From a plasmid, in the sequence record NZ_AP019754.1: 64,000 nucleotides of DNA. The stretch is one strand, 5' to 3'. This document shows, one piece after another, positions 46,362 to 63,194 of the stretch. The notes beneath the pieces were generated by a model that did no database searches, had not been told where the DNA came from, and was given only the letters and a program-made list of their open reading frames with translations. A program made the translations under genes and the position numbers. How positions within the stretch are numbered: the stretch's first letter is position 1; each line of letters starts with the position of its first letter.

Positions 46362-48290
46362 TCAGAACGTTTCCCAGTTACCCTCAGCTGGACTGGGCTG
46401 ACGAAGAGAGACAGGCGCTTTGGTCACAGATTTTGCTGTGTTGTGGCTAACGGCCATTCCACTCTTGTTCGCGGGCAAACGGAACACGGCGACCGTTTTT
46501 TCCAGCTCTTCTGCCTGAGACTCCAGCGAGCTGGCGGCGGCTGAAGACTCTTCAACCAGTGCGGCGTTTTGTTGTGTTGTGGTATCCATTTCTGTCATTG
46601 CCTGAGCAATTTGTGATATGCCGCGGTTTTGCTCATCGGAAGCCGCCGCGATTTCGCTCATGATGTCCTTCACCTGCGTGACGGACAAGACTATTTCATC
46701 CATCGTCGATCCCGCCTGATCGACCAGCGTGGACCCTTCGTTAACACGATGCAGTGAATCACGGATCAGCGTCTCGATTTCCTTCGCCGCCACAGAACTG
46801 CGCTGCGCAAGATTTCTGACTTCGCCGGCGACAACTGCAAAACCCCGACCTTGCTCGCCCGCCCGTGCCGCTTCAACAGCTGCGTTCAACGCCAGAATAT
46901 TTGTCTGGAAAGATATTCCATTGATTACGCTGATGATTTCGCCAATTTTACCTGAGCTGGTTGTAATACCTTGCATGGTGGTGACTACGTTACGAATGAT
47001 GTCACCGCCCCGTCCGGCATTCGCCGATGCTTCCGTTGCAAGCTGGCTGGCATGGTGCGCGTTTTCAGCATTTTGCTTAACGGTGGAAGTTAACTCTTCC
47101 ATACTGGCAGCGGTTTGCACCACGGCGGCAGACTGCTGCTCAGTGCGCGATGACAAGTCCATATTACCGGCGGCGATCTCAGAAGAGGCACGCGCCACAC
47201 TGTTCACTCCGTCGCGCACGTTGGTGATGATGTTTTGCAGACTTTCGTTCATCACGCTGACCGCCTGCATCAACTGGCCCAGTTCGTCGCGCCGCGTGGT
47301 TGAAAGCGTGGCGGTAAGGTCGCCTTCAGAGATGCGCTGAGCCACGCTCAACGTTTCTTTCAGCGGTACCGTAATGGCGCGCGTAATACGCCAGGCAACC
47401 AACAGGCTGAGCAGGATACACAATGCGGCAACGACGGCGATCTGACGTTCAGCGTTAAGTAGAGCGCTGGTAGATTCAGATGCCTGGTAGTCAAAGAGCT
47501 CAGCCACAGATGTATTTAACTTTTCGGCCACTGCACTGAGTTGTGAAGAGGCAGCGGCCTCTGCACCCACGGCAGTCATATAGTCCGTAAAAGCCTGCTT
47601 TAACTGCGTCAGATCCGTTTTCTGCGTATTAAGGACCGCCTGGATCTCAGGAATGGCGAGCGCCGAAAGCTGAGTTCGGATCTGCTCAATGGACGTAATG
47701 TTACCGTAAATTTCGACTTTACTGGCTTCAGTGGGCTTATCAATAAAGCGCTCGACGTCACCGGCGACCTCCTTCAGTAATGAGGCTAAGCGTAATACCT
47801 GCAGCATTGCCTCTGGCTGAGCGGGAACATTCACCCCATCAAGACTTTGCCCAAGCGTGAGCAGATCGTTACCCTGAATAACCGCAGAAGCCGCAAAGGT
47901 CTTTTTGGAGGCGAGATAGAATGCCTGGCGCAGGGTTTGATAGCTTTGTAACGCGCTCCCCAGAACGTCAAGCTGTTGTTCACCCTGAGCGTTCCAGTCA
48001 AATTTCTTTAACGTGTCAAAATGGGCGCTTAATTCGTTGAGTGCGCGGGCGTTGACCTGAGCATACTGCTCGTCTTTCGTGTACTGATACAGCAAACGGT
48101 TCATGCGCGCTTTACTGAGTGTATTGACCATGTTGACGGTAACGTCTTGTTTTGCTGAATTCTCTTTAATGCTCTGGAAACCTTTAAAGGCCAGAAGCGC
48201 TATCGCGAGGGTCGCAACGATAAGCACGCCAAAACTCAACCCCAGCTTTTTTCCTATTTTCATATCGGAAAACGTACGTGTAATAAACAT
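46362..48290 (-). CDS. Methyl-accepting chemotaxis protein (paralog A)
   Basis: 642 aa. N-terminal TM, periplasmic helical sensor, HAMP, MCP signalling domain, C-terminal NWETF pentapeptide. Highly similar to the MCP at 61026..62942. Confidence 0.9.
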
Positions 48291-48364
48291 AATTTCACCC
48301 TGACAGGAAGGAAAAAGAAAGCGTGTTTTGCAGCCTGTATTAACCCCACACTGCTTAATGAAAC

Positions 48365-48391
48365 TTATCGACTACCACCATGAAAACTTTA
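48365..48391 (-). promoter_or_regulatory. Sigma-28 (FliA) promoter for MCP paralog A
   Basis: Minus strand reads TAAAGTTT-N11-GTCGATAA. Exact -35, 7/8 at -10, ~75 nt upstream of the MCP start codon. Confidence 0.7.
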
Positions 48392-48859
48392 AAGACAATT
48401 TGAAATATAAATTCACAACTGTGACATCAGTGTGTTTAAGCGCTGTTTTATGACATTTTTATGGTTTAGTATTAACAGTTAAGCCCATAATAGTTAGGGG
48501 GCGAATAATTTAAGCAGGTTTTTTGCTGACTTTTTTTTACATTTGAAACCAGAAAAAATATAAAATTTAAAAATCTTTACTAAGAATAAAGGATTTTAAA
48601 ATCAATAAGTTGGCTGATCTGCCTTCCGGCGGGTATTTATTAACATCTTAAAGATTTGATAATCACCCCTGAAACTTAAATTCGCAGAAAAAATACGTTA
48701 CTTTCTCTTAACATCGCCAGCTTAGTGATTAGCATTCTAGTTATAATTTGTATTAGTTAATTACAGAGATTAAATAATATTTCTATGAAACTCGCTCCCT
48801 GAGAGGTACGTTTAATCTGATTAATCTTTTTCAACTATTTGGAAACAGGCTAACCAAAC

Positions 48860-49399
48860 ATGCAATATATGACCTTTCTTCTTGCTGCATTAATTTTCTG
48901 CGGCTCTGCCGCCGCCGCGCCAGCGTCAGAACCCGTTTCACTACTCTCTCGGGCACTGCATGAGAGAATGCTGTTAATGAAGGATGTTGCAGCCTTCAAA
49001 AAAACGCACAATAAGCCGATTGAAGACCTGGCTCGGGAACAGGATGTGTTAGCCGAAGCCAAAGAGAAATCGGCAAAAGCTGGCCTCGATCCACAGTCTG
49101 TGACCGCTTTTTTTCAGGGACTGATGGATGCAAGTAAAGCGATTCAGTATCGTTATCTGGCAGACTGGTTGAGTGCTCCGCATGCCGTCCCACCCGCGAA
49201 AGATCTGGCAGAGTTGCGCCAGCAGATTAATCTGTTAGACGGACAGATTTTGCAAGCCATCAACCAGCAGCTGTCACAGGGTGGTTTTACCAAAGGCGAT
49301 TTAGCTCAGCTACATCAGCAGCTAAATGTCCAGCATCTGAGCGATAACGACATCAATAACGTTTTGCTGGGGCTGGAGCACATTCGGCTCAAAAAATAA
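48860..49399 (+). CDS. Secreted (periplasmic) chorismate mutase, AroQ-gamma class
   Basis: 179 aa. Cleavable signal peptide (LIFCGSAAAAPAS). RMLLMKDVAAFK and helical CM core resemble the periplasmic *AroQ described in Erwinia herbicola and Salmonella. Confidence 0.75.
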   Translation: MQYMTFLLAALIFCGSAAAAPASEPVSLLSRALHERMLLMKDVAAFKKTHNKPIEDLAREQDVLAEAKEKSAKAGLDPQSVTAFFQGLMDASKAIQYRYLADWLSAPHAVPPAKDLAELRQQINLLDGQILQAINQQLSQGGFTKGDLAQLHQQLNVQHLSDNDINNVLLGLEHIRLKK

Positions 49400-60965: not shown

Positions 60966-61025
60966 CGGATTGAACCCTGAGAGGATATAAATCTCCGGGT
61001 ACTATTCAACTCCGGGGTAATTTAA

Positions 61026-62942
61026 ATGAATATTATAAGAAAAGTTACAGATTTAAAGATAGGCGCCAAACTGGGACTGGGATTCACGCTGGTCATACTG
61101 GCCTCCGTCATCATATCGGCGCTGGCGTTTCGCTGTTTTTTAAGCATTCAGGAAAATTCGGCCAAGCGCGATGTCACCGTTCAGATGCTCGACACGCTGG
61201 CGAAAGCCAGACTTAACCGCACGCTTTTTCAGTACACCCGCGACAAAAAGTTTATTGAGATTAACGGCGAGGCGATGAATCAGCTTTTTGTCTTACGAAC
61301 CAGTCTTAATAAATACTCCTGGTCGGCGGAAGGAGGGGAAAGGCTTTCTGTTCTGAGCGGTATCCTGACGCAGTATCAGGAAAAGCGTCAGGCTTTTCTC
61401 GAGAGCAGTGACAGTGCCGCGCGCGCGCTGAGCGAAATACACACGCTGGGCCTGGCATCACTGGGAGAAAAACTGGCCACCGGCCAGGCTTCGGCTCCTG
61501 CCGACGTTGTTGCGCCCCTACTTTCCCTCAGCTTCAGGACAGAGCAGGCGGCATTTTTTGTCCAGGAGTTCATCAGAAAGCCGGACGCTTCCACGCTGGA
61601 TAAATTCAGTGAAGTCAGGGACGCCATTGCTCCGCAGGTAAACCAGCTCAGAGGCGTTTCCGGCAGCGCACTCGCCGCAGTAGTGGCGGACGTGGAGCAA
61701 AAAATGGCATCGGGCTCCGCACTGCTGAATAATTATCTCCTTTCTGTGCGGACTGAAAAGCAGGCCTCAGATGAAATGACCGCAGCGGCAGGTAAGCTGA
61801 ACCAGTCCATCACGGACCTCGCGTTCTTTCAGTCAGAGATGGCTGAGAAGTATATCCAGACCGCGCTCTGGCAGATCGGTTTTGCAACACTCGCCTGTAT
61901 TGTTCTCAGCCTCCTGATTGCCTGGCGAATGACGCGAAGTATCACCGTTCCGCTGAGAGAGACGCTGTTGTCTGCACAGCGCATTGCTGAAGGTGATCTG
62001 ACCTCAGACATCACTACCTCTCGCACCGATGAGCTTGGCGAGCTGATGACCGCCGTGGGCGCGATGAACCAGAGCCTGCGTGACATTATCTCCCGTGTCA
62101 GGGACGGAGTGAATAACGTCGCCCGCGCCTCCTCCGAGATTGCAGCGGGTAACACCGACCTGTCTTCACGCACGGAACAGCAGTCGGCAGCGGTGGTTGA
62201 AACTGCTGCCAGCATGGAGGAGCTGACCTCCACCGTTAAGCAGAATGCGGAGAATGCCCATCACGCCAGCCAGCTGGCCACCGAGGCGTCACACAATGCC
62301 AGCCGCGGCGGGGAAATCATCAGTGACGTGATCAACACGATGGGAGGGATCAGCCAGAGCTCAGGTAAAATCGGCGAAATCATCTCCGTCATTAACGGTA
62401 TCGCTTTCCAGACGAATATCCTGGCGCTCAACGCCGCCGTCGAGGCTGCAAGAGCGGGAGAACAGGGAAGGGGATTCGCAGTAGTTGCCGGTGAAGTCCG
62501 AAATCTGGCACAGCGTAGTTCACTTGCGGCAAAAGAAATCGAGGCGCTGATAAGTGAGTCACTGAGCCGGGTGAGTAACGGTACCGAACTGGTTAACCGT
62601 GCCGGTGTCACGATGGAGGATATCGTCAAGTCTGTGACCCAGGTCAGGGACATCATGGGCGAAATTGCCGCTGCGTCGGACGAACAGAACCGCGGAATAA
62701 CCCAGATTGCGCAGGCCATGACAGAGATGGACACCACAACTCAGCAGAATGCCGCGCTGGTTGAAGAGTCATCCGCAGCAGCCAGCAGCCTCGAGGATCA
62801 GGCTCATGAGCTTGAAAAAACCGTAGCCGTGTTCCGTGTTCCTGCTTCCGGCCTGTTGATGCCGGAGGTTAAGGTGCCCACGCCGGCGTTAAAACACCCG
62901 TCATCCCTCAGGGCGTCGGAAGCAAACTGGGAAACATTCTGA
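61026..62942 (+). CDS. Methyl-accepting chemotaxis protein (paralog B)
   Basis: 638 aa. Same architecture as the MCP at 46362..48290. Long identical stretches (e.g. [53 protein letters not shown]). C-terminal NWETF. Confidence 0.9.
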
Positions 62943-63017
62943 CAGCCATACTGCAGCCAGAGCCGTCTGTAACGACATCTGGCTGCATCTTTCAGTCATT
63001 TATCGGTGAGGTGGTCA

Positions 63018-63194
63018 GTGTGTGATCTCAGCGTGCAGCATTGTCACATCGGTAAGGCGGTGGAAGCTCTTTTTTATGATGCGGAGTCAGTCACCCGATT
63101 AAAGGTAATAGGCAAACTGAGCATGATGCTCAGGGAAGAGTCTGATCCTGTCCGGAAAAACGAGATAGTAATCGCCATCACTCTTCTCAGTTAA
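63018..63194 (+). CDS. Second YmgB/AriR-family-like small protein (58 aa), putative
   Basis: GTG start with GAGGTGG RBS. IGKAVEALFYDAESVTRLKVIGKLSMMLREESDPVRKNEIVIAITLL resembles the AriR/YcgZ core and the ORF at 59430..59702. Confidence 0.35.
   Translation: MCDLSVQHCHIGKAVEALFYDAESVTRLKVIGKLSMMLREESDPVRKNEIVIAITLLS

What the first reader, a model, noticed from the sequence alone, without database searches (positions are those of the whole stretch)
46362..63194. cgs is bracketed by two closely related sigma-28-driven MCP paralogs and two YmgB/AriR-like small proteins
The MCP genes at 46362..48290 (minus) and 61026..62942 (plus) share the same domain layout and long identical peptide stretches, including the NWETF C-terminus. 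That points to a duplication. The two copies flank the chorismate mutase, the IS30 remnant, cgs and a YmgB-like gene. The second copy is followed by another YmgB/AriR-like ORF. Homologous MCP copies on each side could mediate recombination (inversion or excision) of the intervening ~13 kb. YmgB/AriR-type connectors modulate Rcs and biofilm signalling. This could link cyclic-glucan production to envelope-stress and motility control.
Basis: partly seen in the sequence, partly recalled or inferred. Interest (0 to 1): 0.55.

Follow-up and report, generated by a model that had tools for sequence, protein, structure and literature searches.

The report
Old chemoreceptor paralogs in a plasmid mosaic
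The two chemoreceptor genes flanking the cyclic-glucan synthase on this Pantoea ananatis megaplasmid are ancient paralogs too diverged to recombine, and their position around cgs is a strain-specific accident of plasmid shuffling; the two small neighbouring genes do appear to be distant YmgA/AriR-type proteins that travel with the second chemoreceptor.

Summary
The window is a Pantoea ananatis LPP-1-type megaplasmid, 99.2% identical to the strain R100 plasmid.

**What is confirmed**
- Both MCP genes exist at the stated coordinates. Both have HAMP and MCPsignal domains and end in NWETF.
- Each has a sigma-28-like motif 60-75 nt upstream of its start codon.

**What is not supported**
- The two MCPs are old paralogs: 58% amino-acid and 60% nucleotide identity, synonymous sites saturated (dS about 2.5-3.6), and a longest identical DNA run of 14 nt.
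- Each MCP has closer orthologs in other Pantoea species than it has in its paralog, so they are not a substrate for homologous recombination.
- No assembly examined shows an inversion.
- The bracketing of cgs varies between strains. PA13 and other LPP-1 plasmids lack the MCP-B region. Several drafts carry 4.35 kb more between cgs and MCP-B. The MCP-B region also sits on IncFII-type plasmids without cgs.

**The small ORFs**
- Neither hits Pfam YmgB.
- The 90-aa protein's profile detects E. coli YmgA. Its AlphaFold model matches the YmgB/AriR crystal structure best of all PDB chains. Its homologs sit inside ymgB gene clusters.
- The 58-62-aa ORF is a weaker relative, conserved downstream of MCP-B orthologs.

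The real unit is a three-gene module, small protein, MCP-B, small protein, delimited by REP-like hairpins that ISCfr4-like IS30 elements also target.

The parts
46362..48290 (-). MCP-A: 642-aa methyl-accepting chemotaxis protein with a roughly 245-aa unclassified helical periplasmic sensor, HAMP, MCPsignal and a C-terminal NWETF
   Evidence: Present in the P. ananatis LPP-1 plasmids listed whose match reaches the arnEF-MCP-A end of the query.
48365..48391 (-). Sigma-28 (FliA)-type promoter motif TAAAGTTT-N11-GTCGATAA, 75 nt upstream of the MCP-A ATG
   Evidence: 1 mismatch to consensus; 0.44 matches (at up to 3 mismatches) expected per window
48860..49399 (+). Chorismate mutase (CM_2) with a hydrophobic N-terminal leader, so probably exported
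49522..49807 (.). Non-coding fragment homologous to the region just downstream of IncFII-type repA genes, ending at the hairpin
   Evidence: 76-85% identity to L017, L016 and L002, in each case downstream of repA
49808..49820 (.). Left half of a REP-like hairpin (GTCCGCTTTGTGC), split by the IS end
49821..50087 (-). 3' end and terminal inverted repeat of an ISCfr4-like IS30-family element (remnant)
   Evidence: about 90% identity to annotated ISCfr4/IS30 transposase genes
50393..50551 (+). YnfU-family zinc-binding small protein, co-conserved with cgs across genera
   Evidence: NF038384, 62.9 bits
50688..59291 (+). cgs/ndvB cyclic beta-1,2-glucan synthase (2867-aa ORF; Glycoamylase and GH94 domains)
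   Evidence: NdvB on LPP-1 is noted in PMC3505739
59294..59317 (.). Intact REP-like hairpin GTCCGCTCTGTGCCAGGAGCGGAC. It is the junction where strains differ and is chimeric between the two copies that flank a 4.35-kb insert in other strains.
   Evidence: alignment to most plasmids stops at 59317
59430..59702 (-). win90: 90-aa YmgA/AriR-superfamily small protein, divergent from MCP-B
60939..60966 (+). Sigma-28-type motif TAAATAAT-N11-GCCGATAC, 60 nt upstream of the MCP-B ATG. It is conserved at a near-identical distance (61 nt from the end of the GCCGATA core) in an ortholog with 84% nt identity.
61026..62942 (+). MCP-B: 638-aa MCP with the same architecture as MCP-A and a C-terminal NWETF
   Evidence: orthologs at 84-88% identity in other Pantoea
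62952..62987 (+). 10-bp stem-loop (TGCAGCCAGA...TCTGGCTGCA) between MCP-B and the small ORF, also present in Pantoea sp. JZ2
   Evidence: read; function not tested
63006..63194 (+). win62: small ORF, probably 58 aa from the GTG at 63018. A weak relative of the win90/YmgA family, conserved downstream of MCP-B orthologs.
   Evidence: called as a 58-aa gene; (dN/dS 0.30)
63255..63308 (-). 5' UTR and terminal inverted repeat of a second ISCfr4-like element. The rest was lost, apparently by deletion between two AACGTCC microhomologies.
   Evidence: (unoccupied hairpin at the same site in L015 and L002)
63309..63321 (.). Right half of the hairpin split by that IS (GCCAGGAGCGGAC)
63865..64000 (+). 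Start of a dCache_1-GGDEF diguanylate cyclase gene, cut off by the window end

Best explanation
The interval is a mosaic stretch of the Pantoea ananatis LPP-1 megaplasmid made of independent modules. It is not a functional unit organised around cgs.

(1) MCP-A and MCP-B are flagellar-regulon (sigma-28-type promoter) chemoreceptors. They belong to one sensor subfamily that duplicated before the Pantoea species diverged. Only purifying selection on the signalling domain keeps long peptide stretches identical. The DNA is too diverged to recombine.

(2) MCP-B belongs to a conserved three-gene module: a divergently transcribed 90-aa protein, MCP-B, and a downstream 58-62-aa protein. Both small proteins are distant members of the YmgA/AriR (YmgB) three-helix superfamily. 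By analogy with E. coli YmgA and YmgB, they most likely act as small protein-binding modulators of a signalling pathway that governs the motile-to-sessile switch (Rcs phosphorelay or c-di-GMP circuitry). This step is inferred, not shown.

(3) The module is delimited by copies of a 24-nt REP-like hairpin. Indels and module swaps between strains and replicons all break at these hairpins, and ISCfr4-like IS30 elements insert into their loops. In this strain and in R100, an indel between two hairpin copies placed the module directly after cgs.

(4) ynfU-cgs is a separate two-gene module, widespread on enterobacterial plasmids.
For: **Source:** 99.2% identity over 18.5 kb to the P. ananatis R100 plasmid.

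**Age of the paralogs**
- 58% aa identity.
- 60% nt identity, a 950-nt block at 73%, and a longest identical run of 14 nt.
- By domain: 35% sensor, 65% HAMP, 85% signalling.
- dS 2.5-3.6 for A versus B, against 0.5 for B versus its ortholog.
- Orthologs of each paralog occur in other species.

**Sigma-28 motifs:**. Three of the four core matches lie before MCP genes. The MCP-B motif is conserved in an ortholog.

**Conservation of the module**
- An MCP-B ortholog (88% aa), a win62 ortholog (62%) and a win90-like gene (45%) have the same arrangement in GCA_002959535.1.
- Remnants or orthologs of both small genes flank MCP-B in JZ2.

**Small proteins**
- 50 homologs with E<1e-3.
- Among 1521 ORFs, the family profile ranks the family itself first, then YmgA-position genes (32.4, 22.3 and 19.2 bits), one YmgB-like ORF (18.9 bits; no Pfam hit on record) and the win62 orthologs (18.1, 13.1 and 12.3 bits); AriR itself scores only 8.7 bits (E 0.22, not significant). 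Everything else has E>1.
- hhalign of the family against YmgA gives E 1.6e-4. The win62 family against the win90 family gives probability 87.7%, E 3.4e-6.
- The AF2 model (pLDDT 75.7) has 2oxl_A (YmgB) as its top hit among 350,542 PDB chains: TM 0.89, rmsd 0.8 A over 58 columns.
- Homologs P0006 and P0032 sit next to two PF10798 genes each.
- UniRef names the P. allii homolog YmgB/AriR.
- win62 has dN/dS 0.30.

**Strain variation at hairpins:**

**YmgA/YmgB function in E. coli:** PMC3509220.
Against: - Neither small protein reaches any Pfam or NCBIfam threshold. None of the 41 family members hits PF10798.
- A family profile does not find 2OXL by sequence.
- The Foldseek E-value is only 0.037, and three-helix bundles are a simple fold.
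- The win62 model did not recover the fold. Its profile score is only 12-18 bits.
- No expression or interaction data exist, so the Rcs or c-di-GMP role is analogy only.
- Sigma-28 dependence rests on motif matches. The MCP-B -35 element has 3 mismatches.
- In other Pantoea plasmids (P. alfalfae, P. agglomerans) the near-identity match covers MCP-B only. The triad is therefore not proven universal.
- The direction of the 4.35-kb indel (deletion or insertion) is not determined.
Confidence: 0.8

Rival explanations
1. The two MCP genes are a recent duplication whose inverted copies mediate homologous recombination, inverting or excising the roughly 13-kb segment that carries cgs.
For: The genes are in inverted orientation and share a 950-nt alignable block and long identical peptide stretches.
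Against: - The block is only 73% identical. The longest identical run is 14 nt and third-codon-position identity is about 45%.
- dS is saturated.
- Orthologs of each copy exist in other species and are far closer than the paralog.
- All complete plasmids are collinear.
- The variation actually seen breaks at hairpins, not within the MCP genes.
Confidence: 0.02
2. The region is a functional island in which YmgB-type connectors couple cyclic-glucan synthesis to Rcs envelope-stress signalling and motility.
For: - The small proteins are YmgA/AriR-like.
- In this strain one of them lies 139 nt from the end of cgs.
- A GGDEF gene follows the module.
- E. coli YmgA and YmgB activate Rcs.
Against: - Adjacency to cgs occurs only in this strain and R100.
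- Other strains have Nramp, FMN-dehydrogenase and acetyltransferase genes in between, or lack the module altogether.
- ynfU-cgs occurs on many Klebsiella, Enterobacter and E. coli plasmids without the module.
- The module occurs on IncFII-type plasmids and in JZ2 without cgs.
- win90 is convergent with cgs, so they do not share an operon.
Confidence: 0.07
3. One or both small ORFs are not genes but chance reading frames in AT-rich spacer DNA, and the YmgB resemblance is noise.
For: - No curated family hit.
- win62 has a GTG start and a narrow, Pantoea-only family.
- The win62 fold search was uninformative.
Against: - win90 has 50 homologs with nearly invariant motifs, a confident three-helix core, and YmgB as its top PDB match.
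- The win62 frame is preserved through an in-frame 9-nt indel at 73% nt identity.
- win62 has dN/dS 0.30 and a profile-profile E of 3.4e-6 to win90.
- win90 and win62 are the only two ORFs of the window that the family profile finds at E<1.
Confidence: 0.08

Closest known systems
E. coli YcgZ-YmgA-AriR(YmgB) small connector proteins (Pfam PF10798; PDB 2OXL)
   Same: - Size of 60-90 aa.
- Predicted three-helix bundle superposing on 2OXL.
- Shared N-terminal motif xIxGxAxLxL...SLIxxL, aligned in register with YmgA.
- Homologs encoded inside ymgB clusters beside GGDEF/EAL genes.
   Different: - No PF10798 hit.
- Here the genes are not in a ycgZ-ymgAB operon beside bluR/bluF. They sit singly on either side of a chemoreceptor gene.
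- The conserved W-L motif at the end of helix 3 is specific to this subfamily.
- Rcs dependence is untested.
Enterobacterial transmembrane MCPs with a C-terminal NWETF pentapeptide (Tar/Tsr class, FliA regulon)
   Same: HAMP and MCPsignal domains, the NWETF CheR/CheB-tethering pentapeptide, and a sigma-28-type promoter motif.
   Different: - The periplasmic sensor is about 245 aa. It hits neither TarH/4HB nor any PDB sequence.
- All NCBIfam equivalog scores are below cut-off.
- The ligand is unknown.
REP/BIME-type extragenic palindromes used as IS insertion targets (for example IS1397 and ISKpn1 in REP loops; from my own knowledge)
   Same: Short intergenic hairpins, often in doublets 15-24 nt apart. 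IS copies sit in the loop centre with a roughly 2-bp duplication. Rearrangement breakpoints fall at these hairpins.
   Different: - The IS here belongs to the IS30 family (ISCfr4-like).
- The exact 24-mer is shared by Enterobacterales, many Alphaproteobacteria and other phyla, whereas classical REPs are species-specific.
- No RAYT gene was found near the sampled copies.
NdvB/Cgs cyclic beta-1,2-glucan synthase on Pantoea LPP-1
   Same: A 2867-aa Glycoamylase/GH94 protein. Its presence on P. ananatis LPP-1 is already described (PMC3505739).
   Different: Nothing notable, apart from the co-conserved upstream ynfU-family gene.

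Membership tests
YmgB/AriR family (Pfam PF10798) | Match to the PF10798 HMM at or above the gathering score | tested here: not met
   No hit at E<=10 for win90, win62 or close homologs. None of 41 family members hits. Positive controls: AriR 90.3 bits and YcgZ 24.9 bits. E. coli YmgA also fails.
YmgB/AriR family (Pfam PF10798) | Three-helix bundle fold of YmgB (PDB 2OXL) | tested here: met
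   For win90, the AF2 model (pLDDT 75.7; above 87 over residues 11-60) has 2oxl_A at rank 1 of 350,542 chains: TMt 0.89, rmsd 0.8 A, probability 1.0, E 0.037. For win62 the test was inconclusive: 2oxl_A ranked 8th at E 4.
YmgB/AriR family (Pfam PF10798) | Detectable sequence relationship to YcgZ, YmgA or AriR | tested here: met
   The win90-family HMM scores YmgA at 19.2-19.5 bits (E 1e-4 among 1521 ORFs), YmgA-position genes of two other clusters at 32.4 and 22.3 bits, and AriR at 8.7 bits, which is not significant. hhalign against YmgA gives E 1.6e-4, probability 51%. win62 relates to the win90 family at hhalign probability 87.7%.
YmgB/AriR family (Pfam PF10798) | Genomic association with ycgZ-ymgAB-type clusters or c-di-GMP genes | tested here: inconclusive
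   Met for homologs P0006 and P0032, which are adjacent to two PF10798 genes each, one cluster beside a PAS-GGDEF-EAL gene. Not met for P0013 and P0021. In the window only a dCache-GGDEF gene lies nearby.
YmgB/AriR family (Pfam PF10798) | Activates the Rcs phosphorelay and modulates biofilm or acid resistance | not testable with these tools
   Needs genetics. The E. coli basis is in PMC3509220.
NWETF-class methyl-accepting chemotaxis proteins of the FliA regulon | HAMP and MCPsignal domains with two transmembrane segments | tested here: met
   PF00672 and PF00015 hit in both proteins. Hydrophobic segments near residues 15-35 and 281-300 were read.
NWETF-class methyl-accepting chemotaxis proteins of the FliA regulon | C-terminal NWETF pentapeptide | tested here: met
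   Both proteins end in NWETF. The third MCP in the window ends in NWESF.
NWETF-class methyl-accepting chemotaxis proteins of the FliA regulon | Sigma-28 promoter (TAAAGTTT-N11-GCCGATAA) | tested here: met
   Motif-level evidence only: 1 mismatch for MCP-A. For MCP-B the TAAA/GCCGATA core is exact and conserved in an ortholog. Transcription was not tested.
Repeats competent for RecA-mediated inversion or excision | Stretches of perfect identity of at least about 20-30 bp, with overall identity well above 90% | tested here: not met
   The longest identical run is 14 nt. Identity is 73% over 950 nt and 60% overall.
Repeats competent for RecA-mediated inversion or excision | Alternative orientations or excision products seen in related genomes | tested here: not met
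   All P. ananatis plasmids align collinearly through MCP-A to cgs. R100 is collinear over the full 18.5 kb. Breakpoints lie at hairpins.
IS30 family (ISCfr4-like) | Homology to an IS30-family transposase gene plus terminal inverted repeats | tested here: met
   49805-50087 is about 90% identical to annotated ISCfr4/IS30 transposase 3' ends. The 25-nt terminal repeats at 49821-49845 and 63284-63308 match full copies in L017 and L018. Both are remnants, and no intact transposase is present.

The most novel reading that the evidence does not exclude
The unit [win90, MCP-B, win62] may be a hairpin-delimited, exchangeable 'chemosensory cassette'. In this reading, two YmgA/AriR-like mini-proteins couple one flagellar-regulon chemoreceptor to Rcs or c-di-GMP signalling. 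The flanking 24-nt GTCCGC...GCGGAC hairpins are conserved to the base across several phyla, usually occur in doublets, and are the specific insertion target of an IS30 subfamily. They would act as general cassette-exchange sites on plasmids rather than as passive REP-like repeats.
Probability: 0.12. Interest if true: 0.6.

Novelty: new member of a known kind. Interest (0 to 1): 0.25.

Why it matters
As framed, it matters little. Paralogous chemoreceptors on a mosaic accessory plasmid are ordinary, and the proposed recombination switch around cgs does not exist.

Two modest points survive.
- A divergent, Pfam-invisible branch of the YmgA/AriR small-protein superfamily is stably linked to a specific chemoreceptor in Pantoea. 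That gives a concrete pair of genes to test for cross-talk between chemotaxis or motility and biofilm or envelope-stress signalling in a plant pathogen.
- The module boundaries expose a hairpin repeat that seems to organise plasmid mosaicism. It is targeted by ISCfr4-like IS30 elements and has an unexpectedly wide phylogenetic spread, which deserves a dedicated look.

Tried and rejected
- **Pfam and NCBIfam scans of both small ORFs and their close homologs:** nothing.
- **Family profile against PDB sequences:** only spurious bHLH hits at E about 0.3.
- **AF2 and Foldseek for win62:** the model merged helices 1 and 2, and the search was uninformative.
- **The search for related loci with alignments A1 and A3:** I sampled gene neighbourhoods by the look-up of encoding contigs instead.
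- **Sensor domains of both MCPs against PDB sequences:** no relatives. The sensor class stays unassigned. 'HBM-like' would only be a guess from its length.
- **Rfam on 45-64 kb:** only sub-threshold STnc430/STnc320 hits at the 3' end of MCP-A.
- **One IS split by a 13-kb insertion:** I considered that the two IS30 ends at 49821 and 63308, which share one orientation, were a single IS or the ends of a composite transposon carrying cgs and MCP-B. I rejected this. An unoccupied hairpin sits at the right-hand site in L015 and L002. The left end lies in an IncFII-ori-like context shared with Klebsiella plasmids. These are independent insertions.
- **Half-hairpins as part of the IS termini:** rejected because the flanking halves change with the loop type of the hairpin hit.
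- **Hairpins as Xer/dif-like sites or intrinsic terminators:** no sequence resemblance to dif and mostly no T-tract. This was judged by eye.
- **RAYT search near hairpins:** none found.
- **Literature search for the hairpin sequence and for ISCfr4 target preference:** nothing relevant.

Full report
**Source and layout.**
- The 18.5 kb around the finding is 99.2% identical, end to end, to the unnamed 331-kb plasmid of Pantoea ananatis R100 (rep_cluster_1232). That is the LPP-1 type.
- Gene order in the window is as follows.
  - arnT, arnE and arnF come first.
  - MCP-A is at 46362..48290 (-).
  - A chorismate mutase is at 48860..49399.
  - A roughly 300-nt fragment resembling the region downstream of IncFII repA genes follows at 49522..49807.
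  - An ISCfr4-like IS30 3' remnant is at 49821..50087.
  - A YnfU-family gene is at 50393..50551.
  - cgs/ndvB is at 50688..59291.
  - A hairpin is at 59294..59317.
  - A 90-aa ORF, here called win90, is at 59430..59702 (-).
  - A 1.3-kb AT-rich spacer follows.
  - MCP-B is at 61026..62942 (+).
  - A 58-62-aa ORF, here called win62, is at 63006/63018..63194.
  - A 54-nt IS30 5' remnant is at 63255..63308.
  - The start of a dCache-GGDEF gene is at 63865.

**The observation.**
- Both MCPs are real. Each has HAMP and MCPsignal domains and ends in NWETF.
- They are 58% identical overall. By domain this is 35% in the periplasmic sensor, 65% in HAMP and 85% in the signalling domain.
- A third MCP in the window, at 28085..29743, is 44-45% identical to both in the cytoplasmic part. 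A and B are therefore each other's closest paralogs here, but not close ones.
- The sigma-28 claim holds at motif level.
  - MCP-A has TAAAGTTT-N11-GTCGATAA, 75 nt before its ATG.
  - MCP-B has TAAATAAT-N11-GCCGATAC, 60 nt before its ATG.
  - The only other exact TAAA-N15-GCCGATA match in 64 kb precedes the third MCP.
  - The MCP-B motif is retained at a near-identical distance in an ortholog whose DNA is 84% identical.

**Recombination potential.**
- A codon-aware alignment gives 60% nucleotide identity.
- BLAST aligns only the 950-nt signalling block, at 73%.
- Third-position identity is about 45%, and the longest in-register identical run is 14 nt.
- Nei-Gojobori dS is 3.6 overall and 2.5 in HAMP plus signalling. 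It cannot be computed in the sensor domain. MCP-B against a cross-species ortholog has dS 0.5.
- The MCP-A sensor domain has 69%-identical orthologs in P. stewartii and Pantoea sp. JZ2. The MCP-B lineage matches it at only about 35%.
- In JZ2 the two orthologs lie about 200 kb apart, and MCP-B sits next to urea carboxylase and cigR, not cgs.
- The duplication therefore predates Pantoea speciation. The identical peptides reflect constraint on the signalling domain. The DNA lacks the roughly 20-30 bp of perfect identity that RecA-dependent exchange needs (established knowledge).
- All complete P. ananatis plasmids are collinear across MCP-A to cgs.

**Is the bracketing of cgs meaningful?** No.
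- In PA13, and by single-place matches also in LMG 5342 and others, cgs is followed directly by a DMT (ydcZ-like) gene. The whole MCP-B region is absent.
- In four draft genomes, Nramp, FMN-dehydrogenase, a 72-aa gene and an acetyltransferase (4.35 kb) lie between cgs and win90.
- Only R100 shares the window's arrangement.
- Of the PLSDB plasmids, only R100 and a 135-kb IncFII-type, traI-carrying plasmid of strain TZ39 hold the win90 plus MCP-B segment. A similar IncFII_repA context appears in GCA_054063235.1.
- Conversely, ynfU-cgs alone (window 50326-59287) is shared with Duffyella, P. vagans, Enterobacter, Klebsiella and E. coli plasmids.

**What makes the variation.**
- Every breakpoint coincides with a 24-nt hairpin, GTCCGCT(C/T)TGTGCCAG(A/G)AGCGGAC.
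- The alignment to most plasmids stops exactly at its end, position 59317.
- In the drafts the 4.35-kb segment is flanked by two copies. The window's single copy is chimeric between them.
- On the IncFII-type plasmids the module runs from one intact hairpin to another.
- The hairpin at the module's right end is intact there, but in the window it is split by the IS30 end at 63284-63308. The rest of that IS seems to have been lost between two AACGTCC microhomologies.
- The left IS remnant at 49821 likewise abuts a half hairpin.
- Full-length ISCfr4-like copies in Klebsiella and P. stewartii, and a 52%-identical IS30 relative in an unrelated locus found by the hairpin scan, all sit in the loop centre of such hairpins. 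The flanking halves follow the loop type of the hairpin that was hit. The hairpin is therefore the target, not part of the IS.

**The small proteins.**
- win90 has no Pfam or NCBIfam hit.
- An exhaustive HMMER search found 50 relatives, mostly 80-105 aa, with a nearly invariant motif IIGEAAL-LAL-(K)EI-V-SLI-EL-MA...W-L.
- I searched the family profile against all 1521 stop-to-stop ORFs of the window and six comparison loci. It recovers, in order:
  - the family itself;
  - the genes in the YmgA position of two ymgB clusters (32.4 and 22.3 bits);
  - E. coli YmgA (19.2 bits);
  - a YmgB-like ORF (18.9 bits; no Pfam hit on record);
  - the three win62 orthologs (18.1, 13.1 and 12.3 bits);
  - AriR (8.7 bits, E 0.22, not significant);
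  - then only noise, at E>1.
- hhalign of the family against YmgA gives E 1.6e-4 over 59 columns in register.
- The AlphaFold2 model has a confident core with pLDDT 87-94 over residues 11-60. Its best match among 350,542 PDB chains is 2OXL, the YmgB/AriR structure: TM 0.89, rmsd 0.8 A.
- Two homologs (49% and 35% identical) are encoded immediately beside pairs of PF10798 genes. One of these clusters is next to a PAS-GGDEF-EAL gene.
- UniRef already labels the P. allii homolog 'YmgB/AriR'.
- E. coli YmgA itself fails PF10798. The Pfam miss therefore does not argue against superfamily membership.
- win62 evidence:
  - It is called as a 58-aa gene in some assemblies.
  - Its frame survives a 9-nt in-frame indel at 73% nt identity in JZ2.
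  - dN/dS against an ortholog is 0.30.
  - Its family aligns to the win90 family at hhalign probability 87.7%, E 3.4e-6.
  - Its own fold search was uninformative.

**The actual unit.**
- In GCA_002959535.1 an 88%-identical MCP-B ortholog is flanked in the same way by a win90-like gene (45%) and a win62 ortholog (62%).
- JZ2 retains both small genes as well.
- The conserved entity is therefore the triad win90, MCP-B and win62, not the pair of MCPs around cgs.
- By analogy with YmgA and YmgB, which activate the Rcs phosphorelay in E. coli (PMC3509220), the two proteins are most plausibly small protein-binding modulators of motile-to-sessile signalling. This is inference only.

**Verdict.**
- The YmgB-like call is supported as remote homology, closest to YmgA.
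- The proposed functional tie to cyclic glucan is not supported.
- The finding is an ordinary mosaic accessory region with one mildly new element, a Pfam-invisible YmgA/AriR subfamily linked to a chemoreceptor.
- One unexplained by-product remains. The exact hairpin 24-mer occurs in at least 120 genomes, including Alphaproteobacteria, Nitrosomonadaceae, Acidobacteriota and Nitrospiraceae. It usually occurs in doublets 15-24 nt apart.

Noticed in passing
window 59294-59317; split copies at 49808-49820 and 63309-63321; L001, L002, L007, L008, L015, L016, L027-L146: A 24-nt hairpin, GTCCGCTTTGTGCCAGAAGCGGAC, marks every module boundary among Pantoea plasmids. It is dense on some of them, with 5-6 copies in 12-16 kb. 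The exact 24-mer is also present in at least 120 species genomes, including Alphaproteobacteria, Nitrosomonadaceae, Acidobacteriota and Nitrospiraceae. It usually forms a doublet with a second hairpin that has the same arms and a different loop, 15-24 nt away. It is not in Rfam and not in the paper library, and no RAYT gene was found nearby.
   Followed up: partly
window 49821-50087 and 63255-63308; L017, L018, L055, L133: ISCfr4-like IS30-family elements sit in the loop centre of these hairpins with a roughly 2-bp duplication. This holds in Pantoea, Klebsiella and an unrelated locus (L133) carrying a 52%-identical transposase found by the hairpin scan, which suggests hairpin-specific targeting by this IS30 subgroup. 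The right-hand copy in the window was almost entirely deleted between two AACGTCC microhomologies.
   Followed up: partly
window 49522-49820: A non-coding stretch between the chorismate mutase gene and the IS remnant is 76-85% identical to the region just downstream of IncFII-type repA genes in Klebsiella and Pantoea plasmids. It may be a relic of a cointegrated IncF replicon that brought in ynfU-cgs.
   Followed up: partly
L001, L004, L005 10410-14761; L006 7319-11669; junction at window 59294-59323: Other P. ananatis strains carry a 4.35-kb segment (Nramp transporter, FMN-dependent dehydrogenase, a 72-aa gene and a GNAT acetyltransferase) between cgs and win90, flanked by two hairpin copies. 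The window's hairpin is chimeric between them, and R100's differs from it by one base.
   Followed up: partly
window 50393-50551: A 52-aa YnfU-family zinc-binding protein gene lies upstream of cgs. It is co-conserved with cgs on plasmids of Duffyella, Pantoea, Enterobacter, Lelliottia and other genera. Its role relative to cgs is unknown.
   Followed up: no
window 28012-28038 and 28085-29743: A third MCP (552 aa, 4HB/TarH-type sensor, ending in NWESF) has an exact sigma-28 core motif 48 nt upstream of its start codon.
   Followed up: partly
window 62952-62987: A 10-bp-stem hairpin (TGCAGCCAGA...TCTGGCTGCA) lies between the MCP-B stop codon and win62, and is conserved in Pantoea sp. JZ2. It may be an attenuator or an RNA-processing or stability element.
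   Followed up: no
window 46306-46444: Sub-threshold Rfam hits to the enterobacterial sRNAs STnc320 (30.5 bits, gathering score 50) and STnc430 (32.3 bits, gathering score 47) fall at the 3' end and terminator of MCP-A.
   Followed up: no
window 48860-49399: The chorismate mutase (CM_2) has a hydrophobic N-terminal leader and sits in a 38%-GC island. It may be an exported AroQ-type enzyme of the kind seen in plant-associated bacteria.
   Followed up: no
window 60309-60335 (-): A second, poorer sigma-28-like match (TAAAGTTT-N11-GGCGTTAA, 2 mismatches, lacking the CGA core) points toward win90, about 600 nt upstream of its start codon.
   Followed up: no
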